DNA of 64,000 nt, taken from assembly GCA_000002445.1 (NCBI GenBank), contig CH464492.1:96001-160000 (forward strand), written 5' to 3'. Below are positions 766 through 62,575 of the stretch, in pieces. The DNA comes from Trypanosoma brucei (Eukaryota). The notes below the pieces were generated by a model. That model was not told where the DNA came from. It ran no database searches and was given only the letters and a program-made list of their open reading frames with translations. Position 1 is the first letter of the stretch, and each line of letters begins with the position of its first letter. A program made the position numbers and the translations under genes.

Positions 766-1634
766 GCTTCACTTTGTTATGGTGCTTCTTTGATTTGAAG
801 GCAGTTAGGTGGTAGAATTAGGGGATACAAGTTTTCTGCTGCTGCTGTTTTGCCTTAGTTATGCTCATTACCTACGCAATAATCCTGTATCATTGTTAGC
901 ACATTTCCTTTATATCAGCCGTTAAATCGAATAAAAATTCTACAAACAATATGAGCTTCCATTTCATAAACTAAATTGTTAACATATACATTCGGTACAA
1001 GATAGGCAGCCACGGCCGCCGCCATCACCAGTGTTTTGCCTGTTCATTTTCGTGTAAAATGTGGTTCTATTTTAAGTCAAATAGAGTATTTTCGAGTGTT
1101 TAATCTTAAGGTTCTCTACGGTTAAGTTTCCTAGCCGCAGAGTCAAGTCGTGATTTATATATTTTTTACCCTTTATTTTGCGAATAATATTCTGATGTTC
1201 TAAAAGACGCTTCTTCCCATCTCTTTCTAAATATTCCCTTAATCAGGAACTTCAATGTTGTTGGTTCTTCCATATGTTCCACTGTCCGGCGAGGGTTGCT
1301 GTCACTTATTGCTTTCCTTTAAACTTACAGATCCAGAAAGATGTAACGGAGATGAAATGTCTATTAGAAATGTCTGCAACATTGGGTCCACATACTTTAT
1401 TAAGTAGGATCATTTCTACTAAATATACCATTTCAGCTATGTTTTCAAGCCAATTTGGGTTTCATATGGGAAAATAGAAAAACTTGCTTTCTATTTAATA
1501 TACTTCCAATTTTCATGAGTGTAGCTTCTAGTGAGTCTCATTATTTTCTTCACTATCTCTTCAGGATGTCACAGTTTTTTGTGCTTTTACTTTTTTGTTT
1601 TGATGTACTTTGGAGTTTAACGCTGCTGGAAACG

Positions 1635-1649
1635 ATAAGCAGCATTGCT
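1635..1649. repeat. Left copy of the 15-bp target-site duplication ATAAGCAGCATTGCT flanking ingi#1
   Basis: An identical 15-mer sits immediately after the ingi poly(A) at 6911-6925. Confidence 0.85.
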
Positions 1650-1657
1650 CCCTGGCG

Positions 1658-4600
1658 ATGCCGGCCACCTCAACGTGGTGCCAGGGTCCAGTACCCCGTA
1701 TCATCGGGGGAAGCCAAGAGCCAGCAGCGTTCCTTTCATGGGGAACAATGCTGTGCTCCGGCTACGGCATCATACAGCACAGGGATCAGCAGCGTCTTGC
1801 TGGGACACCGTCTTTCATTTGTCGGTCCCTGGGCACGTGCCAGCGTGCCATCAGCAGTATCATCCGCACTAAGATGCTGCTGTCCGGTGATGTGGAAGAG
1901 AATCCCGGCCCGTCGTTGCGCGGGATGCAGTGGAACTGCGCCGGGCTATCTCAAGGAAAGAGATTAGCACTCCACAAAACCCTTGTTGATGAGCGGATCG
2001 CCTTTTGTCTGTTGAGCGAGACAAGGATGACGCCTGGAGAGGCGGCTTGCTTTAGCGTTGCTGGCTACCAACATCACGGAATAGCTCGTAACTGCAAAGG
2101 AGGTGGTGTATCAATACTAGTGAGGGAGGACCTACCAGTCGAGACCGGTATGGCCGTTATTGGTCGCATTGAACAAGTGCATGCAACAATTCACCTTGCA
2201 CGTGGAACGGCGCTGACTGTCACGTCGGCATACATCCCACCAAAACACACCTTCACGGCAACTGACCTAGATACGCTTCTGACGACTGACGGTGCCCAGC
2301 TCATCGGTGCAGACGCTAACGCACACGCGTTGGCATGGGATCGCGCGAGCCCACCAAATACCAAGGGTGAAACCCTCACACAGTGGTGCATTGACAACCA
2401 GTTTCTGGTCTGCAACACTGGTGAGTGCACCAGGTACGCGCGCCACCACGGGGAGTCCAGCCCTGATGTGACACTGTGAAGGAATTGCACAGTGTACACG
2501 TGGACATCGCTGTATTCTCCCGATAGCGATCACCATCACATATTTTTCGACGTTATCGTTGGAGACGACACAGATGCACTGAGTTGCCCGCGGCTTCGAA
2601 AGCCCATGTACGCATGGCTAAAAGCTGACTGGAGGAATTTCCGTCTCAAGGTTGACGAGCTCTGCAGGAAAATTGGTAGAGAGAAGAACGTCAACACCAT
2701 GGAACAGAAATTGAGCTCCGCCATCCGCATTGCGACGAAGGTCTCCGTCCCCCGTGGTTGCAGAGCAACGCCACCACATTGGACACCTGAGCTCGCGAAA
2801 CTCGATGAAGAGATCGCTGGATGCGGACCCTCCCACCGAAGGGAAAAGTTGGTAGCCACGCGTAAGCAGATCCTGGACCGTACCACAAAGAAGAGATGGA
2901 GCACGCTATGCTCCAGACTTGCGGTGTCAGACCGCTGCAGTTGGCACATTGTCAAGAAGGTATATGCGCCACGACCACTAACCACACCGGCTGTACTTGT
3001 AGATAACGCGGCCATCACGGACTACCGTCAAGCTGAGAGGTTCAGTAAACTGTACTCGTCCCGCGCAAGAAGGCACCCCGACTCACACCCACCGGCACCA
3101 ATAAAGACGATAGCGAGTGAGTTCAGTCCCATCACGATGGCTGAACTACGGAGATCGATCAAACTGCTACCGAGTGGATCCGCAGCCGGACCTGATTGCT
3201 TATACAACGAGGCACTGCAACATCTCGGCAGAACAGCGCTGAATGTTGTTCTGAGGCTATTCAATGAGAGCCTACGAACGGGAGTCGTGCCGCCTGCATG
3301 GAAGACTGGTGTTATCATCCCCATCCTGAAGGCCGGAAAAAAGGCGGAGGACCTCGATTCTTACAGGCCTGTGACGCTCACGAGCTGTCTCTGCAAAGTC
3401 ATGGAGCGCATAATTGCCGCGAGACTTAGAGACACTGTTGAGTCCCAGCTGACGCCGCAGCAATCAGGCTTTCGCCCCGGATGCTCAACGCTCGAACAAC
3501 TCCTGCACGTCCGCGCTGCCCTCTGCCGTCCCACGCACCAATATCGTACGGGTGCTGTATTCGTTGACTACGAGAAGGCATTTGATACAGTAGACGACGA
3601 CAAAATTGCGAGGGAAATGCACAGAATGAAGGTATCACCCCACATTGTGAAGTGGTGCGTATGATTTCTGAGTAACCGAACTGGCAGAGTGAGATTCAAG
3701 GAGAAGCTTTCCAGAAGCAGAACATTTGAGCGAGGAGTGCCACAAGGAACTGTCCTTGGCCCAATCATGTTCATTATTGTCATGAACTCGTTGAGCCAAC
3801 GCCTTGCAGAGGTGCCGTTACTGCAGCACGGATTCTTTGCAGACGACCTAACGCTACTTGCGAGGCACACAGAGAGGGATGTCATCAACCACACACTACA
3901 ATGCGGTCTAAACGTGGTGTTACAGTGGTCAAAAGAGTACTTCATGTCTGTCAACGTAGCGAAAACAAAGTGCACACTCTTCGGGTGTATAGAGCGCCAC
4001 CCCCTTACATTACAACTGGACGGTGAAAGAATAGGAGCTGACAGGACACCGAAGCTTCTAGGAGTAACATTCCAGTGTCTGCAGGGGATGGCAACACATG
4101 CGGCCGAAACGAGACGCAAGATGGACTTCCGACTACTGCAGATAGCAGCCATCTCAGCTTCTACATGGGGGCCAAGACGACAAGTACTGAGAGCTTTTTA
4201 TCTAGCACTCGTACAGGCACACACCATGTATGGCATTGAGGTATGGTACTGGGACGCTTCGGAACGAAGTCGCGACCTCCTTGCATCAGCACAACACAAA
4301 GCCAGTCGCATCATAGCCGGCATACCGCATGGGACGCGCAAAGAGGACTCTCTGCTGGAAGCAAACCTCCTGCCACTCAAGACGACCACTCTTGTGCGCA
4401 GCATGAAATTCATGCTGATGTGTGAGTCACGAGGCGGATGTTTGCGGCGCAGTGCTGAAGAAGTATACCACAGCAAACACCCAGTCAGAGCCCTACATTC
4501 CCGTATCATGCGGTCCTACCCCCACCTCCGCATTGAGCCACGCGAAAACCCACTAGAGACATCGACGCTCCGCCACAGCTGCCGACCGATATTTCACACG

Positions 4601-6637
4601 CAGATAAAGGCTGTGTGCGCTGATGACCCTGACGATGTCAAAAGGGAGGCTTCCGAAAAGTGGATTGAACGACATTTTGCACGGAGGGGGAAGGAGCCAC
4701 CGCGGCGAGAGCACTACGAATTGTGGACTGATGGATCCGTGTCCCTCGGTGAGAAGTCCGGAGCAGCTGCCCTGCTCTATAGAAACAACACGCTGATTTG
4801 TGCACCTAAGACAGGAGCAGGGGAACTTTCATGCAGTTACAGAGCGGAATGCGTAGCATTAGAGATAGGACTGCAACGGCTGCTGAAATGGCTTCCGGCA
4901 TACAGAACCACACCGAGCAGGTTGTCCATCTTCTCTGACTCGCTGTCAATGTTAACAGCACTGCAGACAGGCCCCCTAGCCGTAACGGACCCAATTCTAA
5001 GACGACTATGGAGGCTTCTGCTTCAAGTTCAGAGAAGGAAGATACGTATCCGACTGCAATTTGTGTTTGGCCATTGTGGCGTGAAACGGAATGAGGTTTG
5101 CGATGACATGGCCAAAAAGGCCGCAGATTTACCACAGTTGCGAGACACATGGATCCCCGACATCATTGCTTATGCGAAGCGAGTGCTTAGGTCGGAAGAA
5201 GTCCATGAGAACACTCATAGGTTTGGTATCACGGGCAACCACTTTCCAACAAAACATAAGGAAGAACTGACGAGGGAAGAAGAAACGGCACTGGCACGCT
5301 TTCGGGTTGGGTCTTCAAGACACTATGGATGGATGTTGCGAAAGATTAACCCGAGTGTGCCTCCACAGTGCCGATGGTGCAACCCGCAACATGCAGAGAT
5401 AGGGCCAACAATACAAACAGCCCCAACTGTTGCGACACGCACTCTTCAAAGAACCTCCGAACCGACCAAATGTACGGAATGTGATGCCACATACCAATGC
5501 CGCTCGAGTGCTGTAACGCATATGGTAAACAAACATGGCTTTGTGCGAGCTGATGCCCTCCGGAGGATCAAATACGGCGATGCAACACCTGCAGTGGATA
5601 TCCCCCCGGAGCCCCCTCCAGTGGTGGCGATCGTTCCTCTACCATCGAGCACACGAGTTACGATGAGACCGCAGGTGCTTCATTGTACCATCTGTGCCTC
5701 CAAATTCGCAATGCCAGGCAGACTACTACACCACCTTAGAACAATACATGGCATAGGCAGCGGTAGTTGCCGCGTGAAAAGGGGGCGAGAGAACGAGGAC
5801 TCAGAGCAAGGAGATGGTAGAGCCCCAGCAGCGCCAGCCTCTCAGGATACACGGAAGCTGCCGTTTCAATGTGACCTGTGCGAGGCGAGCTTCGGTACAC
5901 GTTCTTCCCTGACACTACACAAGAAATTCAAACATAAAAGCATAGTGACGGAGGACGGTACCGTGGTGTTGGTGCAATTCCCTCGTAAGCGTGCCCGTGA
6001 GGGAAACGTTGACGTCCCGGGGAAGGGCGAGGTGCAGTGCGGTGTGTGCCAAAAAGTGCTCAGTTGCAGGGACTCCCTCATCCGACACTGTAAGGCTTTC
6101 CACAAAGGTGAGGGAGTCGAGCTTAAATGCAGCAAAAGCACAAAATTGTGTGCCACTGATTCCCCGCATACAAACACATCCATGTTGGTGTGCCCGACAT
6201 GCGGAAGGCAGTGTGCTAGCAAAACTGGCCTCACCCTACATCAAAAGAAGATGCACGGTATGAAGGTAGAGCGCGCTGTTACCAGCCAACGCGGCGACTG
6301 CGAAGAAACGTCGCTGCACTTGATGAGCTGTCCCGGTTTGAAGGAGTTACGTGTCAGATTTGCGGTAGAAGGTGAGTGTGTGCAGGATGTATGTTTCTCC
6401 AAAAGGCTGGCGCAGTTTCTCATTGCGGTTGAACGGAGCCGGCCGCAGGTGAAGTCCTCACCTAAGGTAACAGTCATACAACCCACTCTCCCTTCTGCAA
6501 CTTCCCCCCTTATTGCCGAGTGTGGAGCCAGCAGGAAAAGCACCGGACGCAGGAATAGTCCAGACACCCTCAGAGACAGAGGAGGTATGCAGTCAACAAG
6601 CAACAAAAACAGAAACAGAAAGAGGGGGAGAGAATAA
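1658..6637 (+). pseudogene. ingi polyprotein ORF (APE-RT-RNaseH-ZnF) split into three frames (1658-2479, 2492-3664, 3689-6637)
   Basis: A TGA at 2477-2479 plus a 2-bp AC insertion relative to ingi#2, and a second frame break near 3664-3689. Canonical ingi has a single ORF of about 1650 aa. Confidence 0.85.
1888..1911 (+). other. 2A-like ribosome-skipping motif DVEENPGP in ingi#1 (LLSGDVEENPGP), just upstream of the AP endonuclease domain
   Basis: This is the exact D(V/I)ExNPGP consensus. The same motif occurs at 43084-43107 in ingi#2 and at 48411-48434 (minus) in ingi#3. Confidence 0.8.
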
Positions 6638-6910
6638 TAAACGAATAACAAAAAACAAAACAAAAGGATTGCTAATTGACATCTTTGGGAGAGTCCGGGG
6701 TGAGGGGGGCTTCTCGCCCCATCTACTGTATTCCGTTCAACTGCGGAGCTACAACAAAAATTATAGAGGGTGTGTTAGGATGAATAAAAAAGGGAGACTC
6801 TGCCACAGTCGCCAGACCGATAGCATCTCAGGGCTCTACGGTGATGGCTGATGGCCGCGCCAGTTGGGAGAAACTCTCACGAAGGCACGAAGAAAATTAA
6901 AAAAAAAAAA

Positions 6911-6925
6911 ATAAGCAGCATTGCT
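6911..6925. repeat. Right copy of the ingi#1 target-site duplication ATAAGCAGCATTGCT
   Basis: Identical to 1635-1649. Confidence 0.85.
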
Positions 6926-7199: not shown

Positions 7200-7615
7200 C
7201 TCTTATTATAAGGTTCGTATACACACTCACAACACTCTCCTGTTATTATCATCATTATTATTATTACTATCATTATTACTGCTCTTATTATAATATTCGT
7301 ATATACACTCTCACTCTCACAACACTCTCCTATTATTATTATTATTATTATTATTATTACTGCCCTTATTATAATATTCGTATATGCATACTCACAACAC
7401 TCTCCTATTATTATTATTATTATTACTGCTCTTATTATAATATTTGTATATACACACTCACAACACTCTCCTATTATTATTATTATTATTACGGATCTTA
7501 TTATAATATTCGTATATACACACTCACAACACTCTCCTATTATTATTATTATTATTACGGATCTTATTATAATATTCGTATATACACACACTCACAACAC
7601 TCTCCTATCATTATC
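7200..7615 (-). repeat. 70-bp-repeat array of about 6 units (82, 81, 66, 66, 66 bp periods), canonical orientation on the minus strand. It is the 5' boundary of the VSG-A cassette.
   Basis: Tandem units CTTATTATAATATTCGTATATACACACTCACAACACTCTCCTATTATTATT..., the reverse complement of the T. brucei 70-bp-repeat core, with variable (ATT)n tracts. Confidence 0.9.
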
Positions 7616-8109: not shown

Positions 8110-9447
8110 TTAACTGCTCTGAAATTGGTTTTTATCTATTTCGCACTCCCCTTTCCCGCTTTCCCCACCTTTCCATATGCAGTTAGCATCAATACAAGCA
8201 GCTTTGTTGTTTTTGTGTGCGGTGAAAATGGCTTGTTATTTCTGTGGGTTTCCCGCGCCCTTTTGCTCTGTTTGGGCCTGTGCCTGCGACAGGGGTGGGA
8301 CCAGTTTGCCTATAACTGCCGCCTGGTAGACTGCTATTGCTTTTGCGTAAGTTGTTTCTATCGTTGCTGCGTAGAGGCTTTCTTGAGCTTGCTGCAGCGC
8401 TCTTTTTTCAATTGCTACTGCTGCTTGGCGCATCTTGTTGTACCACGGCTGTGTTTCGTGTGTCGTTGTTGATGACTTCTTGAAAAAGTTTGTGTACTCG
8501 ACGCAGGTGTTGCCGGCCGTCCCGGCGCATTCGCTCCCTGTGTTGCTGCTTTTGCCGATCCAGACGCTGTTGTCACTTGCTGCTCCTTGTTGTGTGAGGC
8601 TGCCGTGCCAAGCTTCCAGTGCAGCCGCTATTTCGTGGGGTGTGATGACGTTCTCAGTGTTTAGTGCGCACGAAGCTTTGAGGTCCGCCCATTTTGTTGT
8701 GATCGTCCCCTGATTGTCTATTTCCGCACCGGTAAACGCGCCGCTGCATTCTTTTGCTGCGCCCCCGCTGCCGCCGCGCATACAGAGAAAATCGCCACTG
8801 ATCGACTTTCGCTTGTCGTCGCCGTTGCAGTGGCTTGCCCAGTTGCTGCCCGTACCAAAGCTTGTTGATTGCGTGAGTGCATCTGCTGCCGCTCCGTCTT
8901 CGTATAGTGCTTCACGAAGCAGTTTTTGGATGTTGTTAGTCTCGTCGTTTGTTATAAAGTCCTTGGCTGCCTTCCACTTCTTGCTGATTTCGACTGCTTT
9001 CGCTGTTAACTCCAGGAGGCGATTGTGGGCTGCGAATTGCTGTCGAGCGTCTGCTATTGCTGGGAAGTCTTTGTCTTCCTGTGTTCCAATCTTTTTCTTC
9101 TCCGCCTCCTCTTTGTCTGTTCGCCACGCTCCCCAGGCTGCTGCTCCTCCGAGTGCGCCCGCCTCTTTTTTGCCTTCTGCCGAGAGCTTTTCGTATGCGT
9201 TGCTATTGTTCTTTGAGTTGAACAAAGCGTGCCATTCTTTTGGTGAAGTTGACATGTTGGCTGCTCTTAGTGTTGCTATGTGGGTTTCGATATTTGTTGT
9301 TACGGTCATGTCTGAAAGTTTGCCAGTGGCCGCTTGCAGTAGCCTACACATGGTCCGGTGTTCGCGGGCGTCTTCGTCTGCTGCTCCTTCAGCTGCCCGG
9401 CCCACTATTAGCAGGAAAAGAAGGTGGTTAAATTGTTCTTTCTTCAT
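8110..9447 (-). pseudogene. VSG-B, a B-type VSG with a frameshifted C-terminus
   Basis: The 403-aa ORF (8236-9447) starts MKKEQFNHLLFLLIVGRAAEG and stops before any C-terminal domain. The Cys-rich tail (CIDANCIWKGGESGKGECEIDKNQFQSS) continues in another frame down to the TAA at 8110-8112. Confidence 0.8.
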
Positions 9448-11416: not shown

Positions 11417-11767
11417 CTAGAATGTTAAAAAACTCAAAAAAGCAGAAGTTATACTCAGAGAAAATTTCTGATTGGCGAGGAAAATACCGTTTCGGTACTT
11501 TTCTGTATCCTTATCGTCTTCGCCATCTTTACCCTTCCTAAATGCACAATTTTTCTTGTCTCCTGTTTTGTCCTTTTTACAATCAGGCTGATTATGGTGC
11601 CTTGCACATCCAGTTGTAGCTACTTCCCCTGCAATTCCATCTCCTTTTTCTAGCTCTGTGGTTTCCGTTCCTGCCTTAGGTTTGCACTTGTTACCATCTG
11701 TGCTGTTTCCGATATAAACGCAATGCTCGCTTGGGCATTCTACTGCAGTTGTGTTTTTTAGTTGCAT
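11417..11767 (-). pseudogene. VSG-C, an orphan VSG C-terminal domain plus GPI signal with no N-terminal domain
   Basis: The 116-aa ORF ends ...CKKDKTGDKKNCAFRKGKDGEDDKDTEKYRNGIFLANQKFSLSITSAFLSFLTF, a Cys-rich domain followed by a hydrophobic GPI-signal tail. The 850 bp upstream carries no VSG N-domain. Confidence 0.75.
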
Positions 11768-15002: not shown

Positions 15003-15110
15003 GTCATTATTATTATTACTGCTCTTATTATAATATTTGTATATGCACACTCACAACACCGTTTTATAAAAAAAATTGTTATTATTATCGTTATCATTAT
15101 TTTCCCTACA
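15003..15110 (-). repeat. 70-bp-repeat unit or units upstream of VSG-D
   Basis: CATTATTATTATTACTGCTCTTATTATAATATTTGTATATGCACACTCACAACACC followed by a degenerate ATT-rich tract. Confidence 0.8.
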
Positions 15111-21351: not shown

Positions 21352-21515
21352 TTATCATTATTACTGCTCTTATTATATTATTCGTATATACACACTCACA
21401 ACACTTTCCTATTATTATTATCATTATTATCATTATTATTATTAATACTGATCTTATTATAATATTCGTATATACACACACTCACAACACTCTCCTATTG
21501 TTATTATTATCATTT
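21352..21515 (-). repeat. Two 70-bp-repeat units upstream of VSG-F
   Basis: Two copies of the ...CTTATTATA(T/A)TATTCGTATATACACACTCACAACACT(T/C)TCCTATT... core separated by an ATT/ATC tract. Confidence 0.85.
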
Positions 21516-21748
21516 TCATTTTATCCTAAATTCCTTATAATAGTCATTAAAAATAGATGACCAAAATTAGAATATCATTCATTTTTAATTTTCTGTTACT
21601 ATACTACCTTGCACACATAGGATACTATCATACATATTTAACTGAAATTATAAAATTTTCATTTTTTTATGCTTCTCAAAATAGAAAAATAGCAAAGTTT
21701 CATACAGATTTATCATAGAAGAAATGCAAGTAAAGGAGGGGTTGTAAT

Positions 21749-39119: not shown

Positions 39120-39265
39120 TCCTATCATTATTATTATTATCATCATTATTATTATTATTACTGTCATTATTATTATCATTATTACTATCATTACTGCTCT
39201 TATTATAATATTCGTATATGCACACTCACAACAGTCCCCTATTATTTATTATTATTATATCACAA
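39120..39265 (-). repeat. 70-bp-repeat unit preceded by a long (ATT/ATC/ACT)n tract, forming the upstream boundary of the VSG-L/VSG-M region
   Basis: CATTACTGCTCTTATTATAATATTCGTATATGCACACTCACAACAGTCCCCTATTATTTATTATT, preceded by about 80 bp of triplet repeats. Confidence 0.85.
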
Positions 39266-42844: not shown

Positions 42845-45800
42845 CCCTGCTAATGCCGGCCACCTCAACGTGGTGCCAGGGTCCAGTACCCCGTATCATC
42901 GGGGGAAGCGAAGAGCCAGCAGCGTTCCTTTCATGGGGAACAATGCTGTGCTCCGGCTACGGCATCATACAGCACAGGGATCAGCAGCGTCTTGCTGGGA
43001 CACCGTTCTTCATTTGTCGGTCCCTGGGCACGTGCCAGCGTGTCATCAGCAGTATCATACGCACTAAGATGCTGCTGTCCGGTGATGTGGAAGAGAATCC
43101 CGGCCCGTCGTTGCGCGGGATGCAGTGGAACTCCGCCGCGCTATCTCAAGGAAAGAGATTAGCACTCCACAAAACCCTTGTTGATGAGCGGATCGCCTTT
43201 TGTCTGTTGAGCGAGACAAGGATGACGCCTGGAGAGGCGGCTTGCTTTAGCGTTGCTGGCTACCAACATCACGGAATAGCTCGTAACTGCAAAGGAGGTG
43301 GTGTATCAATACTAGTGAGGGAGGACCTACCAGTCGAGACAGGTATGACCGTTGTTGGTCGCATTGAACAAGTGCATGGAACAATTCACCTTGCACGTGG
43401 AACGGCGCTGACTGTCACGTCGGCATACATCCCACCAAAACACACCTTCACGGAAACTGACCTAGATACGCTTCTGACGACTGACGGTGCCAAGCTCATC
43501 GGTGCAGACGCTAACGCACACTCGTTGGCATGGGATCGCGCGAGCTCACCAAATACCAAGGGTGAAAACCTCACACAGTGGTGCATTGACAACCAGTTTC
43601 TGGTCTGCAACACTGGTGAGTGCACCAGGTACGCACGCCACCACGGGGAGTCCACCCCTGATGTGACACTGTCAAGGAATTGCACAGTGTACGTGGACAT
43701 CGCTGTATTCTCCCGATAGCGATCACCATCACATATTTTTCGACGTTATCGTTGGAGACGGCACAGATGCACTGAGTTGCCCGCAGCTTCGAAAGCCCAT
43801 GTACGCATGGCTAAAAGCTGACTGGAGGAATTTCCGCCTCAAGGTTGACGAGCTCTGCAGGAAAATTGTTAGAGAGAAGAACGTCAACACCATGGAACAG
43901 AAATTGTGCTCCGCCATCCGCATTGCGACGAAGGTCTCCGTCCCCCGTGGCTGCAGAGCAACGCCACCACATTGGACACCTGAGCTCGCGAAACTCGATG
44001 AAGAGATCGCTGGATGAGGACCTTTCCACCGAAGGGAAAAGTTGGTAGCCACGCGTAAGCAGATTCTGGACCGTACCACAAAGAAGAGATGGAGCACGCT
44101 ATGCTCCAGACTTGCGGTGTCAGACTGCTGCAGTTGGCACATTGTCAAGAAGGTATATGCGCCACGACCACTAACCACATTGGCTGTACTAGTTGATAAC
44201 GCGGCCATCACGGACTACCGTCAAGCTGAGAGGTTCATTAAACTGTACTCGTCTTGCGCAAGAAGGCACCCCGACTCACACCCACCGGCACACATAAAGA
44301 CGATAGCGAGTGAGTTCAGTCCCATCACGATGGCTGAACTACGGAGATCGATCAAACTGCTACCGAGTGGATCCGCAGCCGGACCTGATTGCTTATACAA
44401 CAAGGCACTGCAACATCTCGGTAGAACAGCGCTGAATGTTGTTCTGAGGCTATTCAATGAGAGCCTACGAACGGGAGTCGTGCCGCCTGCATGGAAGACT
44501 GGTGTTATCATCCCCATCCTGAAGGCCGGAAAAAAGGCGGAGGACCTCGATTCTTACAGGCCTGTGACGCTCACGAGCTGTATCTGCAAAGTCATGGAGC
44601 GCATAATTGCCGCGAGGCTTAGAGACACTGTTGAGTCCCATCTGACACCGCAGCAATCAGGCTTTTGCCCCGGATGCTCAACGCTCGAACAACTCCTGCA
44701 CCTCCGCGCTGCCCTCTGCCGTCCCACGCACCAATATCGTACGGGTGCTGTATTCGTTGACTAAGAGAAGGGATTTGATACAGTAGACGACGACAAAATT
44801 GCGAGGGAAATGCACAGAATGAAGGTATCACCCTACATTGTGAAGTGGTGCGTATGATTTCTGAGTAACCGAACTGGCAGAGTGAGATTCAAGGAGAAGC
44901 TTTCCAGAAGCAGAACATTTGAGCGAGGAGTGCCACAAGGAACTGTCCTTGGCCCAATCATGTTCATTATTGTCATGAACTCGTTGAGCCAACGCCTTGC
45001 AGAAGTGCCGTTGCTGCAGCACGGATTCTTTGCAGACGACCTGACGCTACTTGCGAGGCACACAGAGAGGGATGTCATCAACCACACACTACAATGCGGC
45101 CTAAACGTGGTGTTACAGTGGTCAAAAGAGTACTTCATGTCTGTCAACGTAGCGAAAACGAAGTGCACACTCTTCGGGTGTATAGAGCGCCACCCCCTTA
45201 CATTACAATGGACGGCGAAAGAATAGGAGCTGACAGGACACCGAAGCTTCTAGGAGTAACATTCCAGTGTCTGCAAGGGATGGCAACGCATGCGGCAGAA
45301 ACGAGACGCAAGATGGACTTCCTACTACTGCAGATAGCAGCCATCTCAGCTTCTACATGGGGGCCAAGACGACAAGTACTGAGAGCTTTTTATCTAGCAC
45401 TCGTACAGGCACACACCATGTATGGCATTGAGGTATGGTACTGGGACGCTTCGGAACGAAGTCGCGACCTCCTTGCAGCAGCACAACACAAGGTCAGTCG
45501 CATCATAGCCGGCATACCGCATGGGACGCGCAAAGAGGACTGTCTGCTGGAAGCAAACCTCCTGCCACTCAAGACGGCTACTCTTGTGCGCAGCATGAAA
45601 TTCACGCTGATGTGTGGGTCACGAGGCGGATGTTTGCGGCGCAGTGCTGAGGAAGCATATCACAGCAAACACCCAGTCAGAGCCCTACATTCCCGCATCA
45701 TGCGGTCCTACCTTCACCTCCGCATTGAGCCACGCGAAAACCCACTAGAGACATCGACGCTCCGCCACAGCTGCCGACCGCTATTTCACACGCAGATAAA

Positions 45801-48089
45801 GCCTGTGTGCGCTGATGACTCTAACAATGTCAAAAGGGAGGCTTCCGAAAAGTGGATTGAACGGCATTTTGCACGGAGGGGGAAGGAGCCACCGCGACGA
45901 GAGCACTACGAATTGTGGACTGATGGATCTTTGTCCCTCGGTGAGAAGTTCGGAGCAGCTGCCCTGCTCTATAGAAACAACACGCTGATTTGCGCACCCA
46001 AGACCGGAGCAGGGGAACTCTCATGAAGTTACAGAGCGGAATGCGTAGCATTAGAGATAGGACTGCAACGGCTGCTGAAATGGGTTCCGGCATACAGAAG
46101 CACACCGAGCAGGTTGTCCATCTTCTCTGACTCGCTGTCAATGTTAACAGCATTGCAGACAGGCCCCCTAGCCGTAACGGACCCAATTCTGAGACGACTA
46201 TGGAGGCTTCTGCTTCAAGTTCAGAGAAGGAAGATACGTATCCGACTGCAATTTTTGTTTGGCCATTGTGGCGTGAAACGGAATGAGGTTTGCGATGAAA
46301 TGGCCAAAAAGGCCGCTGATTTACCACAGTTGCGAGACACATGGGTCCCCGACATCATTGCTTATGCGAAGCGAGTGCTTAGGTCGGAAGAAGTCCATGA
46401 GAACACTCATAGGTTTGGTATCACGTGCAACCACTTTCCAACAAAACATAAAGAAGAACTGACGAGGGAAGAAGAAACGGCACTGGCACGCTTTCGGGTT
46501 GGGTCTTCAAGACACTATGGATGGATGTTGCGAAAGATCAACCCGAGTGTGCCTCCACAGTGCAGATGGTGCAACCCGCAACATGCAGCGATAAGGCCAA
46601 CAATACAAACAGTCCCAACTGTTGCGACACGCACTCTTCAGAGAACCTCCGAATTGACCAAATGTACGGAATGTGATGCCACATACCAATGCCGCTCGAG
46701 TGCTGTAACGCATATGGTAAACAAACATGGTTTTGTGCGAGCTGATGCCCTCCGGAGGATCAAATACGGCGATGCAACACCTGCAGTGGACATCCCCCCG
46801 GAGCCCCCTCCAGTGGTGGCGATCGTTCCTCTACCATGGAGCACACAAGTCCCGATGAGACCACAGGTTCTTCATTGTACCATCTGTGCCTCCATATTCG
46901 CAGTGCCAGGCCGACTATTACACCACCTTAGAACAATACATGGCATAGGCAGCGGTAGTTGCCGCGTGAAAAGGCGACAAGAGAACGAGGACTCAGTGCA
47001 AGGAGATGGTAGCGTCCCAGCAGCGCCAGCCTCTCAGGATACACGGAAGCTGCCGTTTCAATGTGACCTGTGCGAGGCGAGCTTCGGTACACCCTCTTCC
47101 CTGTCACTACACAAGAAATTCAAACATAAGAGCATAGTGACGGAGGACGGTACTGTGGTGTTGCTGCAAATCCCTCGTAAGCGTGCCCTTTAGGGAAACG
47201 TTGACGTGCCGGGGAAGGGCGAGGTGCAGTGTGGTGTGTGCCAAAAAGTGCTCAGTTGCAGGGACTCCCTCATCTGACACTGTAAGGCTTTCCACAAAGG
47301 TGAGGAAGTGGAGCTTAAATGCAGCAAAAGCACAAAATTGTGTGCCACTGATTCCCCGCATACAAACGCATCCATGTTTGTGTGCCAGACATGCGGAAGG
47401 CAGTGTGCTAGCAAAACTGGCCTCACCCTACATCAAAAGAAGATGCACGGTATGAAGGTAGAGCGCGCTGTTACAAGCCAACGCGGCGACTGCGAAGAAA
47501 CGTCGCTGCACTTGATGAGCTGTCCCGGTTTGAAGGAGTTACGTGTCAGGTTTGCGGTAGAAGGTGTGTGTGCAGGATATATGTTTTTCTAAAAGGCTGG
47601 CGCAGTTTCTCATTGCGGTTGAACGGAGCCTGCCGCAGGTGAAGTCCTTACCTAATGTAACAGTCATACAACCCACTCTCCCTTCTACAACTTCCCCCCT
47701 TATTGCCGAGAGTGGAGCTAGCAGGAAAAGCACCAACCGCAGGAATACTCCAGACACCCTCAGAGACAGAGGGGGTATGCAGTCAACAAGCAACAAAAAC
47801 AGAAAGAGGGAGAGAGAATAATAAACGAATAACAAAAAACAAAACAAAAGGATTGCTAATTGACATCTTCGGGAGAGTCCGGGGTGGGAAGCTTCTCGCC
47901 CCATCTGCTGTATTCCGTTCAACTGCGGAGCTACAACAAAAAATTATAGAGTGTGTTAGGCTGAATAAAAAAGGGAGACTCTGCCACAGTCGTGAGACCG
48001 ATAGCATCTCAGGGCTCTACGGTGATGGCTGATGGCCGCGCCAGTGGGGGGAAACTTTCACGAAGGCACGAAGAAAATTCAAAAAAAAA
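42845..48089 (+). mobile_element. ingi: ingi#2, a full-length ingi retroposon (5245 bp) with an A9 tail, multiply frameshifted and with no target-site duplication
   Basis: The 5' end is CCCTGCTAATGCCGGCCACCTCAACGTGGTGCCAGGG and the element is about 98% identical to ingi#1 along its length. The ORF is split into at least six pieces (42823-43719, 44042-44764, 44882-45226, 45094-46026, 46114-47193, 47308-47592). The 2A motif is at 43084-43107. Confidence 0.95.
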
Positions 48090-48670
48090 TGCCGACGTGA
48101 CAGTCAGCGCAGTTCCACGTGCAAGGTGAATTGTTGCATGCACTTGTTCAATGCGACCAACAACTGTCATACCGGTCTCGACTGGTAGGTCCTCCCTCAC
48201 TAGTATTGATACACCACCTCCTTTGCAGTTACGAGCTATTCCGTGATGTTGGTAGCCAGCAACGCTAAAGCAAGCCGCCTCTCCAGGCGTCATCCTTGTC
48301 TCGCTCAACAGACAAAAGGCGATCCGCTCATCAACAAGGGTTTTGTGGAGTGCTAATCTCTTTCCTTGAGATAGCCCGGCGCAGTTCCACTGTATCCCGC
48401 GCAACGACGGGCCGGGATTCTCTTCCACATCACCGGACAGCAGCATCTTAGTGCGTATGATACTGCTGATGGCACGCTGGCACGTGCCCAGGGACCGACA
48501 AATGAAAAACGGTGTCCCAGCAAGACGCTGCTGATCCCTGTGCTGTATGATGCCGTTGCCGGAGCAAAGCAGTGTTCCCCATGAGAGGAACGCTGCTGGG
48601 TCTTGGCTTCCTTAGATGAGACGGGGTACTGGACCCTGGCACCACGTTGAGGCGGCCAGCATTAGCAGGG
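48090..48670 (-). mobile_element. ingi: ingi#3, the inverted 5' 580 bp of an ingi (RIME-left half, 2A motif and start of the AP endonuclease domain) abutting the ingi#2 poly(A)
   Basis: The minus-strand 5' end CCCCTGCTAATGCTGGCCGCCTCAACGTGGTGCCAGGGTCCAG lies at 48670. ORF 48009-48446 begins MLLSGDVEENPGPSLRGIQWNCAGLSQGKRLALHK. The fragment breaks at the equivalent of ingi position about 585, directly against the ingi#2 A-tail. Confidence 0.9.
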
Positions 48671-49697: not shown

Positions 49698-49790
49698 CAT
49701 TACTATTATTCCTATTACTGCTTTTATTATAATATTCGTATATACTCACACTCACAACACTCTTCTATCATTATTATTATTATTATAACC
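49698..49790 (-). repeat. 70-bp-repeat unit bounding a cassette slot that now holds only ingi#2 and ingi#3
   Basis: CATTACTATTATTCCTATTACTGCTTTTATTATAATATTCGTATATACTCACACTCACAACACTCTTCTATCATTATTATTATTATT. Confidence 0.85.
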
Positions 49791-53350: not shown

Positions 53351-56300
53351 TCCCTGATTTCTGCCAGCCACACCATCGTGGTGCCAGGGTCTATTACTGC
53401 CTCCAGGAGGAAGGCAAGTGCACGCATTATACCTGATCTGACAGGATTTGGGAGTGAAAGAGGCTTTTGGAAACCACAGGAGCAAGAAGCAGAATTGGCA
53501 TTCTGGGATGAAGAAATATATTAGACTGCTCTTCTGCGCGTGCGAGCGCGCCTCGATTAGGATACATAGGCTTCTAATACTAAGCGGAGATGTTGAGCTC
53601 AACCCTGGTCCTCAGATAAGTGGAGCCCAGTAGAATGATGGAGGTCTCTCCCAGACGAAGCGGATCGCCTTAGAGAAGAAGCTTCACGATGATATGGTAG
53701 TCTTCTGTCTATCGCAGGAGACTCACTTGGCAGCAGAATAATATTATGCATTAAAAATCAGTGGATAACAACACATGGGAATGGAAGGCTTTCCACATGG
53801 TGTTGGGGTATCAATTTTTGTCAAAGATAGCACGGGAGTCTTCCAAGGTCCAAAGGAGGAGGAACTGCCGAAAAGAGTCTCGGCAACACTGATGTGTTCA
53901 ACTAATCTAATGTTAACTATAAAGTCAGTTTACTTCCAACAGAAGGAAGATTTCACTACCTCCACGCTTGATAGCCTTAAGAGCTAAACTAGAACACTGG
54001 TGATATGATCCTATACAACGCACATCACGAGTCATGGGACCCGCTTCACTCAAATGATACAGCGGGAGAATGCATTGTAGACTGGTGTCCACAAAATGAT
54101 ATCAAGATTGCAAATGATGGCACCCCAACAAGAATTCCTCACACGGAAGCCATGTCGTTTCCAGACGTTAGGATGTACAGATAATGCGAGGTCACAAGAT
54201 GTGAAGCAAGTCTCAGTTCAGATAGTGGGCACTACTGGATAATATTTGAGGTGTGCATTGGCATTGGTGTAGAAACGACTGCCATTTCAAAGCTACGAAG
54301 GGTACTGTATGCTTGGAATAAAGCAAATTGTCGGGAGTTTAGAAAAGTGTGTGACGTAAGAATGTTTAATAATTAAGGAAGTCTGGAAAGAATGTGGATG
54401 CCATGGCTGAGGCAGTGACTAAAGGCATTCGCACAGCAGCAAAGAAGAAAACAATACCGAATGGTAATGTAGTATCGCCACCGCTGTGAAGGCGAGAACT
54501 AACCAAACTGGACACAAAAATAAGATAGTGTACAAACGAGAAGCACAGATAGGTTCCCCTATATACAAGAGAAGGAAAGCTCTCGATGAAACATCCCTAC
54601 AACGGTGGAAAGAAAATGTGTCAAAGGTGTCGGTGATCAATACAAAAAATTGGAGTGTAGTCAAGTCGGTGTATGCACTAAGATGACTGACATCTCCGGT
54701 TATGGTAGTAAATAGTCACCCTCTAACACGCAGACAGAAAGCTAATAAGCTAGAGCAGATGTATAGAGAGAGCTGTTGACGAAACTATCAGATGCTCCTG
54801 CCATGAGTATACTTTAACCAGGAAGCAGGGAATTTGCACCAATAACGATGGCAGAACTTGAGACAGAACTGAAGGATCTCTCTTCAAGAGCTGCCTCCGG
54901 TAAGGACGATATACATTGCGAACAGTTAAAGCAATTAGGAAGCTACAGCAAGAAATATGTCCTCAAGCTCATTAACTCTAACCTACAGAAACACTGGGTG
55001 CCGGAGAAGTAGAAGCAGTGCGTTATTGTATCACTACTCAAACCCAACAAACCGGCCAAGTGTATGTTATCTTTCCAAACCATCACACTCACTTGCACCA
55101 TCTGTAAACTCATGGAGATGTTTGTAGAGAGAGAAATACGAAACACAGTAGTGTAAGCTGCAACTACAGCAGACTGTTTTCAACCAGGAAAAATCTATAT
55201 TGTCAGACGCCATGAGCACTCACAGAATCCGTGACACATAGGGTACCAAGAGAGAAAACTGCAGAGGTATTCACATATTATGCGAGGGCATTTAACTCTG
55301 TGGATCGCAGGTGCATAATAGGTGCACTAAAAAGATATGAGGTAGACATAAAACTTATTGTGTCGGTTGCAAATTTCCTGGAGGGATGGACTGCAGTAGT
55401 ACGAATAAACAACACCCTCTCAAATAAAATACAACTCACGTGTGGTGTTCCGCAAGGTTGCGTGTTGGGGACGTTGCTATTCATTATCGCAATAGACTCT
55501 CTCAGTGCGAAATTAAACTCCATACGAGCACTTAAACACTGCTTCTTCACGAACGAACTCACGATAGTATGCTCTAACACTGACCTAGAAGCTATTCGGC
55601 AGACGCTACAAACAGGATTAGATTGAATAGCGAGCTGTTCAGGAGAGGACTATATGAATGTGTCTGCGGAAATAACGGAATACACATTATTTGGGGTGAG
55701 ATACAGAGACTCGTTACGCCTATTTCTTGGACAGTACATGTTAAACGAGACGAGAAATCCCAGACTCCTTAGAGTGACAATGCAGCTACACAAGGGAGTA
55801 AGCAGACATGCACACACCCCACAAACAGCACTAAATATGAGATTAATGAAACTACAGGCTGTTGCATCACCCGAAAAGTGTTAAAAGTAAAGAAATTTTC
55901 CGAGTATTTTACTTAGCCTTAATCCTGGAAAAGGTACGCTATGCGATCGCAGCATGGTGGTTCAATGCTTATCCATCAGAGGAGGAGCTTGAACGAGTAC
56001 AAGAGCAGACGGTACATGTTATCGCTGGTATTCCAAAGTACGCGACTCAGTGAAATGTCATGAAGGATGCCCGTCTTCACAAGATAGATGATTTTGGTCA
56101 CATACGAGGAATAGAATACCATTTAATAAGGAGGGCGAACGGTAAATAATCAGCAGATACAGTGGAAAAAAGTTCCCACCCATTCGTCCGATACACACGC
56201 GACTGCAGAGTGTGTCACACTTTTGTGGGGAAGTGCACAGACCGCAGAAAAAACACACACGGTAAGTATATTGCAACTGGCGAGGAGACCGTACTTCAAC

Positions 56301-59000
56301 ACCACAACACCAGGTGGTCTCCATTCTGGCGCTTTCGACAACGAGAAAAAGACATAAAATGCAAAGGGTACGTAGATTCAAAGACTACGATTATCAAGTG
56401 CAGACGGATGAGTCGGTGATACTGAACGAATCCTCTGGCGCCGACCACGATAATATACCCTAGACAATGTAATGCGGTAAAAGTGAAGAAAGGAGCAGCA
56501 AGTCAGCATGCAACTACAGAGCATGGTGTGTAGCCGTGGAGGCAGGACTTATGAAACTTAAGTCAGTAACAAATCTCAAGGAAAGCATAAAAACGAAAGT
56601 GGAAATATTTACAGGCTCGGTATCCTTATTAATGGCACTTAAAAAGGTCCTGAAGTAGTGAGAGATTCGATACTACAAGGCATATGGAACCTGATCCTGC
56701 ACTTCATGAAACCAAAGGTATCCATGTCGTTTCAGTCTGTGTTTTTGCATTGCAGTATCACGACAAATGACAAAGTGAGCTAACTCGCAAACAAAGGAAA
56801 CCACATGCAGCAAACCTACCTTGCATGGATCACCGAAAATGTCACAGGTATAGCGCACCAAATACGGTATCAGTCACAACGCGACTTCAATTTGCGGGAG
56901 GTCGTGGCCCAAACACACATTGCAGTGCTTTACTAAACCATCTAAAACCGACTCCAAAATACAAGGAGATAGATAAGGAAAATGAGTCAATGTCAGCTCA
57001 ATTTAGAAAGGGACCTCAAAACATTTTGGATGATTACATAGGGTGATCACACGAAAGGTTGACAAACTGGTGTGTAGATGGTGTGCAAAACACATGAAAC
57101 ATTTTCAAGAATTACCCTTCTAAAAATTAAAAAAACTGTAAAGATGGAAGAAACTGAGGAAGGCAAGATGGTAATAGCTGCAACACATAATGACCCGATG
57201 ATATTCTTAGTTTGCAACATCATGTGCGCGAGATGACAAACGGGAGTTGTTCACATAATGAAAACAGATCAGTGGGTTTGTCCAAATGCACTAGTTGCAT
57301 TAAAGATGGCGTCAAGAGAATCGCATCTCTATAATGGAGTCTATCGATGTCACGTATGTGGTAAAGTATTCAAACAAAAGGGACTACTACCGCAACACAT
57401 GCCACAGCACGCTCCAACAACTTCAGTAGTATGGACATAGCGACAAAAGAGGAAGCGAGAATACGAAGAACAGTCGTTGCCAACTGTCGGCAAGTGTTAA
57501 TGCTGCCCCAAGCAGTATGCCACGTATGACTTGTTGACTAGGCATATACATCTAAAACATCCTGAAAAGCAAAGCGATGTGACTCAACAAAAGGAAACGC
57601 AGGATGTAAGCATCGAAGATGAACAATGGCAAGCACAACAAGCATACAAATGCCTCCGGTGCAAACAGTTGTACGGAAGCAAAACATGGCTCACCAGGCA
57701 TAAGTGCAATCCGGAGCAGAGTAAGGGGGAACCAAGCACACCACTACAGGAAGCACTGCCGGAGAGAGAAGAATGTAAGGTATACGGTAAAGAGTACCAG
57801 CACAGCTTGATGTTACCCCGTATGAATGCGAAACACCCCTGGAATGATATCTCACTTAGTCCATATCCGATAAAGATAAGCAAATCGACGAAGGAGATAT
57901 CAAAGTCACAATCAAAGGAAGACACTAGTTGCGACAACAAAAATAAGGATGACGATGAAACACCACTTTGTGTTTGCGGCAAATGCAAGAGGGGTTTCAA
58001 AAGCAAGACATAACTAACACGCTTCAAGTGTGTGAGCATAGAAAGAAATGGCACGAAAAGTGAGAATGTGAACAACCACCATAGAGCAGCTAAATAACTA
58101 GATACAACTACCAAAATGGGTCGAAGCCTGGCTCAATAAATAGAGCACTTCTCAACTCAGACTTGTTACACACAATTAAAATTTGAACTTCACGACAAGA
58201 AAGAGAAGAACAGAGACTGAGCATGACACGCTAGCAGATGAGATGGATATGAGAGATCAGAGAGAGGAGCCAAAACACAAATGGCATAAAGCTTAAGGGC
58301 ATACAGATAACCCTTGTAGAGAGTTTGCATGTGAAAGGTGTTAGAACACCTACATGCTCTGCTGTACGCTAGTATGGAATAACAGAACGCACTACAAAAA
58401 TTCAATCACTGTAAAGAGGAAGCACGAAGAAGGATCCCTTGAAATCACGCCACTGGCCCCCCTTGCGCAACAATGCCCACTCTGCTCGAAGGTATGTGCA
58501 CACAACAATATCTAACAATGCACCTCCAAGAAGCACATGGGCAGGCACATAGCTATGATAGGCGAAATAAGCTAAAAGTCAAATGAGAAATTCAAAGAAA
58601 AATCGGTTCACCTGTTGGAGTGTCTGGCTTTCCGTAAACTCAGGTCTGAGCATATAGACAGTCCGAAAGGGGAAAAAATATACTTTAGTGTTAAGGTGGT
58701 GAACTTCTTAAGGGCACTCTTCATTCCGACGGAAATTCAGGCTCCCACTATAGAAGCGAAGAAATCGATAACCCAAAAGAGAATAAAGAAAGAAAGGCCA
58801 CCATCGTGCTAAGTATCCACTGACTATATGCGACACATTCGGATGACAGCCAGTAAGATTTTCCTCAACTGATGGAAAAAAGTATTGAAAGAAGAGCTTT
58901 GTCAACAAGGCACCATTAGCCAGCCCCCACAGGAGAAAGCGAGTAGGGGATCGTGAGGATGGAAAACATATCAACGGAGAAAGTAGACACCAGGGAAGTC
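53351..59000 (+). mobile_element. DIRE: Degenerate ingi-related retroposon (DIRE-like), heavily decayed, with an uncertain 3' boundary
   Basis: The 5' end CCCTGATTTCTGCCAGCCACACCATCGTGGTGCCAGGGTC is a diverged ingi 5' end. LILSGDVELNPGP (2A-like, 53589-53612) is followed by GLSQTKRIALEKKLHDDMVVFCLSQETHL, which parallels the ingi APE start. RT motifs appear at 55231-55626 (YARAFNSVD, GVPQGCVLGTLLF versus ingi YEKAFDTVD, GVPQGTVLGPIMF). C2H2 fingers lie at 57258-58013 and an ingi-like CxxFRKLR motif at 58615-58690. Stops and frameshifts occur throughout. Confidence 0.75.
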
Positions 59001-62391: not shown

Positions 62392-62433
62392 CTTATGATA
62401 ATATTAGTATACATACACACTCACAACACTCTC

Positions 62434-62471
<38 letters not shown>

Positions 62472-62575
62472 GTTATTATTATTGTTATTATTATTGTTAT
62501 TATTATTGCTATTACTGCTCTCATTATTATATTCGTATATACACACTCACAACACACACCTACCATTATTATTGT
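62392..62575 (-). repeat. 70-bp repeats (2 cores) with a greatly expanded (ATT)12-(ATTATTATTGTT)3 tract, upstream of VSG-O
   Basis: Cores ATAATATTAGTATACATACACACTCACAACACTCTCGT and CTCTCATTATTATATTCGTATATACACACTCACAACACACACC are separated by about 100 bp of triplet repeat. Confidence 0.9.

What the first reader, a model, noticed from the sequence alone, without database searches (positions are those of the whole stretch)
1888..1911. 2A-like ribosome-skipping motif (DVEENPGP) at the start of the ingi polyprotein, present in all three ingi copies and as DVELNPGP in the DIRE
LLSGDVEENPGP (1876-1911; also 43084-43107, 48411-48434 on the minus strand, and LILSGDVELNPGP at 53589-53612) fits the D(V/I)ExNPGP consensus of viral 2A peptides. 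In every copy it sits directly before the AP-endonuclease domain (GMQWNCAGL...), so the short N-terminal leader would be released co-translationally. The motif survives in the much older, decayed DIRE despite heavy divergence elsewhere. That suggests selection maintained it while the element was active.
Basis: partly seen in the sequence, partly recalled or inferred. Interest (0 to 1): 0.55.

Follow-up and report, generated by a model that had tools for sequence, protein, structure and literature searches.

The report
Known 2A skipping peptide in ingi/DIRE
The trypanosome jumping genes (ingi and a decayed relative, DIRE) in this window really do carry a virus-like "2A" ribosome-skipping peptide just ahead of their endonuclease domain, but this has been published and tested since 2006, so only the DIRE copy adds a small detail.

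Summary
DVEENPGP is encoded at 1889-1912 (+), 43084-43107 (+) and 48408-48431 (-), and DVELNPGP at 53589-53612 (+). That is four matches against none expected by chance. In every copy the motif is in frame with the AP-endonuclease domain and ends 5 residues before it. It closes an approximately 84-codon leader that begins in the Pr77 5' hallmark.

The ingi and DIRE elements share only 35% amino-acid identity. Even so, LSGDVExNPGP is 10/11 identical, and 9 of the 10 conserved residues use different codons. The constraint was therefore on the peptide, not the DNA.

A second DIRE copy, from T. b. equiperdum, has a decayed motif (RGDVEHNPCP). Its survival in the window copy is therefore a matter of luck after the element died.

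Relatives in T. vivax, T. conorhini, T. grayi, Angomonas, Strigomonas and Lotmaria carry an intact or decayed 2A at the same position.

Heras et al. 2006 and Odon et al. 2013 reported and tested 2A in L1Tc and ingi. I found no paper that mentions 2A in DIRE, which makes that part a minor extension. Interest is low.

The parts
1650..6910 (+). Full-length ingi copy 1 (5.26 kb). It starts CCCTGG (Pr77 hallmark), has a poly(A) tail at 6899-6910, and is flanked by the target-site duplication ATAAGCAGCATTGCT at 1635-1649 and 6911-6925.
   Evidence: Self-BLAST; 5' alignment; 3' sequence; Pfam APE, RT, RNase H and C2H2 domains.
1658..1909 (+). Inferred leader ORF of ingi copy 1. It runs 84 codons from the ATG at element nt 9-11 to the Gly of NPG. 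The first ~23 codons overlap the Pr77 hallmark and the last ~20 form the 2A peptide.
   Evidence: Translation. Several relatives in other trypanosomatids (e.g. T. conorhini, Lotmaria) begin MPATS at the same place. Use of this start codon is inferred, not shown.
1889..1912 (+). DVEENPGP 2A core of ingi copy 1. The predicted skip lies between Gly (1907-1909) and Pro (1910-1912).
1910..6637 (+). Downstream polyprotein of ingi copy 1 (Pro-APE-RT-RNaseH-C2H2). It is interrupted by in-frame stops at 2477-2479 and 3662-3664, so this copy is a pseudogene.
1925..2476 (+). AP-endonuclease domain (Pfam Exo_endo_phos and Exo_endo_phos_2). It begins 5 residues after the skip site.
42845..48089 (+). ingi copy 2, 96% identical to copy 1, with several frameshifts and stops. 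Poly(A) tail at 48081-48089.
43084..43107 (+). DVEENPGP 2A core of ingi copy 2.
48090..48670 (-). Inverted 581-bp 5' fragment of an ingi (Pr77, leader, 2A and the first ~105 codons of APE). It abuts the poly(A) tail of copy 2.
48408..48431 (-). DVEENPGP 2A core of the ingi 5' fragment.
53352..58986 (+). DIRE (degenerate ingi/L1Tc-related element). It has a Pr77-like 5' end and is 35% identical to ingi over 1020 aligned codons, with 16 stops in those codons plus frameshifts. It is 79% nt-identical to a DIRE of T. b. equiperdum (L001). The 3' end is not defined.
53589..53612 (+). DVELNPGP 2A core of the DIRE, at element nt 238-261. This is the same position as in ingi (nt 240-263).

Best explanation
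These are the known 2A-like 'ribosome-skipping' (StopGo) peptides of trypanosomatid ingi-clade non-LTR retrotransposons.

The proposed mechanism is as follows. Translation of the single long ORF starts near the extreme 5' end of the element, most likely at the ATG at 1658 (inferred). It produces a leader of about 84 residues that ends ...IIRTKMLLSGDVEENPG. While this nascent peptide sits in the exit tunnel, the ribosome fails to form the Gly-Pro bond and the leader is released without a stop codon. Translation then either resumes at Pro, yielding the APE-RT-RNaseH-zinc-finger protein, or aborts, which lowers the yield of that protein. These mechanistic steps come from established knowledge and published assays on ingi and L1Tc sequences.

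What is shown here is the motif, its frame, its fixed position 5 residues before the APE domain, and peptide-level purifying selection on it. The DIRE copy is a fossil of the same device in a different, extinct sublineage. All four copies in this window sit in pseudogenised or truncated elements, so none is likely to make a working enzyme now.
For: - **Motif:** four matches against 0 expected by chance. All are in frame with the APE domain, which starts 5 residues downstream.
- **Conservation between ingi and DIRE:** LSGDVExNPGP is 10/11 identical while the elements are 35% identical overall. It is tied for the most conserved 11-mer among 1010 windows.
- **Codon evidence:** 9 of the 10 conserved residues use different codons, including Ser TCC versus AGC. 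In contrast, the Pr77-encoded codons upstream show 13 identical codons and 0 synonymous changes against the second DIRE copy (L001) (Fisher p = 1.2e-5). The 2A is therefore constrained as a peptide and Pr77 as nucleic acid.
- **Leader frame:** it stays aligned with the Pr77-encoded PATSxWCQG in ingi and in both DIREs despite indels. It is stop-free in DIRE L001, where the other two frames have 8 and 3 stops.
- **Relatives:** in an exhaustive HMMER search, all 42 of the best 150 relatives that span the site have an intact (26) or slightly decayed (16) 2A at the same position. NPGP lies 5 residues before Q(W)N in 33 of 36 cases. Named sources include T. vivax, T. conorhini, T. grayi, Angomonas, Strigomonas and Lotmaria.
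- **Literature:** 2A in L1Tc and ingi was reported and found active in translation assays (PMC3708506, citing Heras 2006; PMC5814959). GDVEENPGP and GDVELNPGP are the cores of active viral 2As, namely PTV-1 at ~94% and ERBV-1 at ~99% (PMC8623073, Table 1). A viral 2A peptide (T2A) separates proteins at 80-90% efficiency in T. cruzi cells (PMC10830525).
Against: - Nothing here tests recoding activity. The exact ingi variant (KMLLSG...) and the DIRE variant in their native upstream context were not assayed by me. The upstream context is known to matter (PMC3708506).
- The start codon is inferred. Neither DIRE copy has an ATG at the ingi position (CTG and AAA).
- Pr77-driven transcripts are described as poorly translatable (PMC3383444 abstract).
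- An in-frame ATG at 1874 lies only 5 codons before the motif. If that were the real start, the nascent chain would be too short for 2A action. That Met is not conserved in relatives, which have L or F there.
- All copies in the window are pseudogenes or fragments.
Confidence: 0.9

Rival explanations
1. The main biological role is translational attenuation rather than release of a useful leader. Under this reading the 2A chiefly makes many ribosomes stall or drop off, which keeps APE-RT protein levels low. This would be a form of self-restraint, replacing the dampening effect of a missing ORF1. It is a variant of the best explanation, not an exclusive alternative.
For: Heras 2006, as summarised in PMC5814959 and PMC3708506, found a strong imbalance with less downstream NL1Tc product in the native context. 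A 2026 preprint (PMC13405545) reports that most retrotransposon-associated 2A-like peptides reduce protein abundance (59% of the ORF2p cases tested). The middle of the leader is poorly conserved between ingi and DIRE, which argues against a conserved leader protein.
Against: The window sequence cannot distinguish skipping with re-initiation from drop-off. The canonical cores GDVEENPGP and GDVELNPGP are highly efficient separators in viral contexts (PMC8623073).
Confidence: 0.35
2. The conserved 24 nt act at the nucleic-acid level, for example as part of the internal promoter, a downstream promoter element or an RNA structure at the element's 5' end. On this view the 2A-like translation is incidental.
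For: The motif lies about 240 nt from the 5' end of elements whose first 77 nt are a known promoter and ribozyme (PMC1874656, PMC3185411).
Against: Between ingi and the DIRE, nearly every conserved residue of the motif is encoded by a different codon (9 of 10). The genuinely nucleotide-constrained Pr77 codons show no synonymous change against the second DIRE copy. DNA identity across the motif is low while the peptide is kept. Relatives from other genera keep the peptide as well.
Confidence: 0.02
3. The match is a chance resemblance to a short viral motif.
For: The core is only 8 residues long, and such motifs do occur by chance in cellular proteins (PMC3708506 notes inactive cellular occurrences).
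Against: There are 4 matches against 0 expected in shuffles. The position is the same in two element families that are 35% identical and in all 42 spanning relatives.
Confidence: 0.01

Closest known systems
ingi 2A-like sequence of Trypanosoma brucei (Heras et al. 2006; Odon et al. 2013, PMC3708506)
   Same: [quoted passage not shown] This is the thing itself.
   Different: Nothing substantive differs. From memory (not verified here), the assayed T. brucei sequence, listed as 'TSR1' by Donnelly et al. 2001, reads ...KMLVSGDVEENPGP, one residue different from the KMLLSG in this window.
L1Tc2A of Trypanosoma cruzi L1Tc (Heras et al. 2006; review PMC5814959)
   Same: It is an ingi-clade element with a single ORF. 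The 2A is in frame and upstream of the AP endonuclease, and a Pr77 hallmark lies at the 5' end. It has been shown to be active, with an effect on the ratio of products.
   Different: The core is DIEQNPGP (57.5% of copies) or DIEQHPGP (PMC3708506). It comes from a different species and sublineage.
Picornavirus 2A peptides: porcine teschovirus-1 P2A (GDVEENPGP) and equine rhinitis B virus 2A (GDVELNPGP)
   Same: The 9-residue C-terminal cores are identical to those of ingi and the DIRE respectively. Reported separation is ~94% and ~99% (PMC8623073, Table 1).
   Different: The upstream residues are unrelated. In viruses the peptide separates large polyprotein domains. Here it separates a short leader from a retrotransposon enzyme. 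No common ancestry has been demonstrated.
2A-like sequences in metazoan APE-type non-LTR retrotransposons (Rex1, L2, L2A, Crack, CR1, Ingi-1_AC; PMC3708506)
   Same: They sit 40-80 residues from the N-terminus of ORF2, mostly in elements that lack ORF1. Several hits of this type appeared in the HMMER search.
   Different: Many of them have a PHD or zinc-finger segment between the 2A and the APE domain. In the trypanosomatid elements APE follows within 5 residues.

Membership tests
2A / 2A-like (NPGP) translational recoding peptides | C-terminal consensus D(V/I)ExNPG|P | tested here: met
   DVEENPGP occurs three times and DVELNPGP once, against 0 expected by chance.
2A / 2A-like (NPGP) translational recoding peptides | The motif lies inside a continuous ORF, and the downstream protein continues in frame from the Pro. 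| tested here: met
   It is in frame with APE-RT-RNaseH in ingi copy 1. It keeps the same frame relative to APE in copy 2, the fragment and the DIRE.
2A / 2A-like (NPGP) translational recoding peptides | At least ~20-30 translated residues lie upstream, so that the nascent peptide fills the exit tunnel. | tested here: inconclusive
   An open 84-codon leader runs from the ATG at 1658, and several relatives in other trypanosomatids begin MPATS at the same place. Use of that start codon is not shown. An alternative ATG at 1874 would give only 12 residues.
2A / 2A-like (NPGP) translational recoding peptides | A suitable, non-conserved upstream context (a hydrophobic, Leu-rich stretch before G-D) | tested here: met
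   ingi has MLLSG and the DIRE has LLILSG. Relatives show the same L-rich pattern, xLLLxxGD. This is a resemblance only.
2A / 2A-like (NPGP) translational recoding peptides | Demonstrated separation of upstream and downstream products in a translation assay | not testable with these tools
   Published as active for ingi and L1Tc sequences (PMC3708506, PMC5814959). I found no report of the DIRE variant in its own context being tested.
ingi (T. brucei autonomous non-LTR retrotransposon, ingi clade) | A single long ORF with APE, RT, RNase H and C2H2 zinc-finger domains and no ORF1 | tested here: met
   Pfam Exo_endo_phos, RVT_1, RNase_H and zf-C2H2 all lie in one frame.
ingi (T. brucei autonomous non-LTR retrotransposon, ingi clade) | About 5.2 kb long, with a Pr77 5' hallmark (CCCTGG...), a 3' poly(A) tail and a target-site duplication | tested here: met
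   Copy 1 spans 1650-6910 with a poly(A) tail and a 15-bp TSD. Its first 76 nt are 84% identical to the DIRE 5' end. The host is a T. brucei-group VSG array.
DIRE (degenerate ingi/L1Tc-related element) | Recognisable APE, RT and RNase H similarity to ingi/L1Tc, but riddled with stops and frameshifts | tested here: met
   It is 35% identical over 1020 codons spread over three frames, with 16 stops in those codons.
DIRE (degenerate ingi/L1Tc-related element) | Pr77-type hallmark at the 5' end | tested here: met
   CCCTG...GCCAGCCACACCATCGTGGTGCCAGGG aligns with the ingi 5' end.

The most novel reading that the evidence does not exclude
The leader-2A-APE arrangement was already present in the common ancestor of all trypanosomatid ingi-clade retroposons, including extinct DIRE lineages. 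It is seen here in Trypanosoma, Angomonas, Strigomonas and Lotmaria. The released leader of about 84 residues, whose first ~23 codons double as the Pr77 promoter/ribozyme, would then be a functional product in its own right, for example a stand-in for the missing ORF1 protein, rather than a mere spacer.
Probability: 0.12. Interest if true: 0.45.

Novelty: already known. Interest (0 to 1): 0.12.

Why it matters
The finding matters little beyond correct annotation. 2A in ingi and L1Tc is a textbook example of a virus-like recoding signal in a cellular mobile element.

This analysis makes three modest additions:
- an extinct DIRE sublineage of T. brucei also carried the 2A, with the ERBV-type core GDVELNPGP;
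- a clean codon-level contrast, with peptide-level selection on the 2A and nucleotide-level selection on the adjacent Pr77 hallmark;
- evidence that the 2A-APE junction with fixed 5-residue spacing is shared by ingi-clade relatives in several trypanosomatid genera, which points to an old acquisition.

Tried and rejected
- **Heras et al. 2006:** I tried to read it by PubMed id and by PMC id, but it is not held. Its content is cited through PMC3708506 and PMC5814959.
- **Exact peptide strings in the literature:** searches for SSIIRTKML... and LILSGDVELNPGP found nothing. Searches linking DIRE with 2A found no explicit report. This covers only the held library.
- **More DIRE copies:** a protein search with the DIRE N-terminus gave one hit (P0001) and one with the RT region gave two. 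Only one extra DIRE locus (L001) could therefore be examined, and no family consensus could be built.
- **Genomic origin of the window:** exact look-ups of two VSG ORFs found no record.
- **HDV-like ribozyme:** an Rfam scan of 1500-2100 gave only a chance-level miRNA hit. Absence from Rfam says nothing about the published L1Tc-type ribozyme.
- **ATG at 1874 as the true start:** I considered this because it would disable the 2A. I rejected it as unlikely because that Met is not conserved in relatives and the upstream frame is kept open.
- **Nucleotide-level function of the motif:** rejected on codon evidence.

Full report
**1. Observation**

A degenerate DNA pattern for D-V-E-x-N-P-G-P matches four times in the window, against none in 100 dinucleotide-preserving shuffles. 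The sites are:

| Site | Strand | Peptide | Element |
|---|---|---|---|
| 1889-1912 | + | DVEENPGP | ingi copy 1 |
| 43084-43107 | + | DVEENPGP | ingi copy 2 |
| 48408-48431 | - | DVEENPGP | ingi 5' fragment |
| 53589-53612 | + | DVELNPGP | DIRE |

The other two are exact. In-frame translations read SSIIRTKMLLSGDVEENPGP/SLRGMQWNCAGLSQGKRLALHK in the three ingi-type copies and IRIHRLLILSGDVELNPGP/QISGAQ*NDGGLSQTKRIALEK in the fourth.

**2. What the elements are**

- **ingi copy 1.** Self-BLAST and the 5'/3' sequences define a full-length ingi at 1650-6910. It starts with CCCTGG, ends in poly(A), and is flanked by a 15-bp target-site duplication (ATAAGCAGCATTGCT at 1635-1649 and 6911-6925). One reading frame runs from 1604 to 6634 with only two in-frame stops. 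In that frame Pfam finds Exo_endo_phos, RVT_1, RNase_H and C2H2 zinc fingers. The endonuclease match begins 5 residues after the NPG|P site.
- **ingi copy 2.** It spans 42845-48089, is 96% identical to copy 1, and carries more frameshifts.
- **The 'third copy'.** This is only an inverted 581-bp 5' fragment (48090-48670) that abuts the poly(A) tail of copy 2.
- **The DIRE.** The fourth site lies in an element of at least 5.6 kb (53352 to at least 58986). It has a Pr77-like 5' end and is 35% identical to ingi over 1020 aligned codons spread over three frames, with 16 stops in those codons. This fits the definition of a DIRE.
- **The surroundings.** The window is otherwise an array of VSG genes and pseudogenes on the minus strand, with 66-bp TAT-rich repeats. 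It is therefore a T. brucei-group subtelomeric VSG array.

**3. Evidence that the motif was functional**

- *Position.* The motif occupies element nt 240-263 in ingi and 238-261 in the DIRE.
- *Conservation.* LSGDVExNPGP is 10/11 identical between ingi and the DIRE. It is tied for the best of 1010 sliding 11-mers and scores higher than the RT GVPQG block.
- *Codon usage.* Nine of the ten conserved residues are encoded by different codons, including Ser TCC versus AGC. The Pr77-encoded codions upstream behave in the opposite way. Between ingi and the second DIRE copy (L001), all 13 conserved residues use identical codons (Fisher p = 1.2e-5). The 2A was therefore kept as a peptide and Pr77 as nucleic acid. 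This rules out a promoter or RNA-structure explanation for the motif.
- *Leader frame.* The net effect of indels between Pr77 and the motif preserves the reading frame in both DIRE copies. In DIRE L001 the leader frame has no stop, while the other frames have 8 and 3.

**4. A second DIRE copy and what 'survival' means**

A protein search with the DIRE N-terminus found one ORF fragment from T. b. equiperdum (P0001). Its locus (L001) holds a DIRE that is 79% nt-identical to the window copy over 5.6 kb. Its motif reads LILLRGDVEHNPCP, with S>R and G>C changes that would destroy a 2A. With ingi as outgroup, the DIRE ancestor had LSGDVExNPGP.

The two DIREs differ more at third codon positions (22%) than at first and second positions (16-17.5%; p = 0.003). 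Six of their nine differences within the motif codons are synonymous. Part of their divergence therefore happened while the lineage was active, and the rest (roughly 8-10% per copy) is neutral decay. At that level of decay I estimate an intact 8-codon motif is expected in about a quarter of copies. Its survival in the window copy is thus luck. The evidence for selection comes from the ingi-DIRE and DIRE-DIRE codon patterns.

**5. Relatives elsewhere**

I ran an exhaustive HMMER search with leader+2A+APE (1658-2476), which gave 1025 hits at E <= 1e-3.

- Of the best 150 hits, 42 span the motif position. Twenty-six have an intact D[VI][EH]xNPGP, and the other 16 have versions at the same place that are decayed or depart from that strict pattern.
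- NPGP lies 5 residues before Q(W)N in 33 of 36 cases.
- Named sources include T. vivax, T. conorhini ('Tcoingi'), T. grayi ('Tbingi'), Angomonas deanei, Strigomonas culicis and Lotmaria passim.
- The DIRE is closer to the T. vivax and T. conorhini type (46-58% identity) than to ingi (35%). It is therefore a distinct ingi-clade sublineage rather than an older ingi.
- Several of the predicted proteins, e.g. from T. conorhini and Lotmaria, begin MPATS... exactly where the ingi ATG (1658) lies. This supports that start codon.

**6. Mechanism**

The following steps are inferred from established 2A biology and published assays, not tested here. Translation begins near the 5' end. The nascent leader of about 84 residues ends in ...LLSGDVEENPG. 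The Gly-Pro bond is skipped and the leader is released. Translation then either resumes at Pro to make the APE-RT-RNaseH protein or aborts, which lowers the yield.

Literature support is as follows.

- Odon et al. 2013 state that 2A elements in L1Tc and ingi had been reported and tested active, that they lie immediately upstream of APE, and that all Ingi-clade elements (Ingi, Tcoingi, Tvingi, L1Tc) have them (PMC3708506).
- The review PMC5814959 summarises the Heras 2006 assays, which showed up to 95.8% cleavage and less downstream product in the native context.
- GDVEENPGP and GDVELNPGP are the cores of the efficient PTV-1 and ERBV-1 2As (PMC8623073).
- T2A works at 80-90% efficiency in T. 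cruzi cells (PMC10830525).

**7. Caveats**

- The start codon is inferred. Both DIRE copies lack that ATG.
- Pr77 transcripts are reported to be poorly translatable (PMC3383444).
- All copies in the window are pseudogenes or fragments.
- I found no report of an assay of the DIRE variant.

**8. Verdict**

I found no paper that explicitly notes a 2A in DIRE. This covers the held library only, and Heras 2006 could not be read. That part is a small and unsurprising extension. Interest is low.

Noticed in passing
window 48081-48670: The poly(A) tail of ingi copy 2 (48081-48089) directly abuts an inverted 581-bp ingi 5' fragment (48090-48670, minus strand). The fragment breaks off at the position equivalent to about 2232 of copy 1. 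I saw no target-site duplication for copy 2, and the rest of the inverted element is absent upstream of copy 2. This suggests a rearrangement, or an insertion followed by a deletion.
   Followed up: partly
window 1635-1649 and 6911-6925: A perfect 15-bp target-site duplication (ATAAGCAGCATTGCT) flanks ingi copy 1. This indicates a clean and relatively recent target-primed insertion, even though the copy has two in-frame stops.
   Followed up: yes
window 1658-1726 vs L001 5543-5611: The first ~23 codons of the leader (MPATSTWCQGPVPRIIGGSQEPA) overlap the Pr77 hallmark. They are conserved at the nucleotide level, with 13 identical codons and no synonymous change between ingi and the L001 DIRE. 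This is the opposite pattern to the 2A. The start codon would lie only 8 nt from the element's first base.
   Followed up: partly
window 7340-7614; also 15006-15059, 21352-21523, 39174-39258, 49699-49786, 62381-62573: These are tandem or dispersed 66-bp repeats with TAT runs (TRF: period 66, 4.1 copies, 95% match). They recur between the VSG ORFs and look like the VSG-associated '70-bp' repeats read on the opposite strand.
   Followed up: partly
window 8236-9447, 21925-22770, 28163-29578, 50116-51534, 59817-61064 (all minus strand): These are VSG genes or fragments (Pfam VSG_B or Trypan_glycop), so the window is a subtelomeric VSG array of a T. brucei-group trypanosome. Exact-sequence look-up of the 50116-51534 VSG product found no public record.
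   Followed up: partly
window 18946-20502 (-): This is a 518-aa ATG-started ORF within the VSG array. It has no Pfam match at E <= 0.001 and no exact record in the protein collection.
   Followed up: no
window 63282-63381: A run of 100 N, which is an assembly gap.
   Followed up: no
window 11478-11569 (-) vs L001 ~5339-5430: A ~93-bp stretch just upstream of the T. b. equiperdum DIRE matches the window at 78% identity (E = 3e-10). It is an unidentified short dispersed repeat.
   Followed up: no
proteins P0020, P0022, P0024 (Angomonas deanei, Strigomonas culicis, Lotmaria passim): Predicted proteins from non-Trypanosoma trypanosomatids have the same layout: the PATSxWC(Q/Y)G leader start, then GDVETNPGP, GDVERNPGP or GDIELNPGP, then APE 5 residues later. 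This suggests the arrangement predates the split of these genera.
   Followed up: partly
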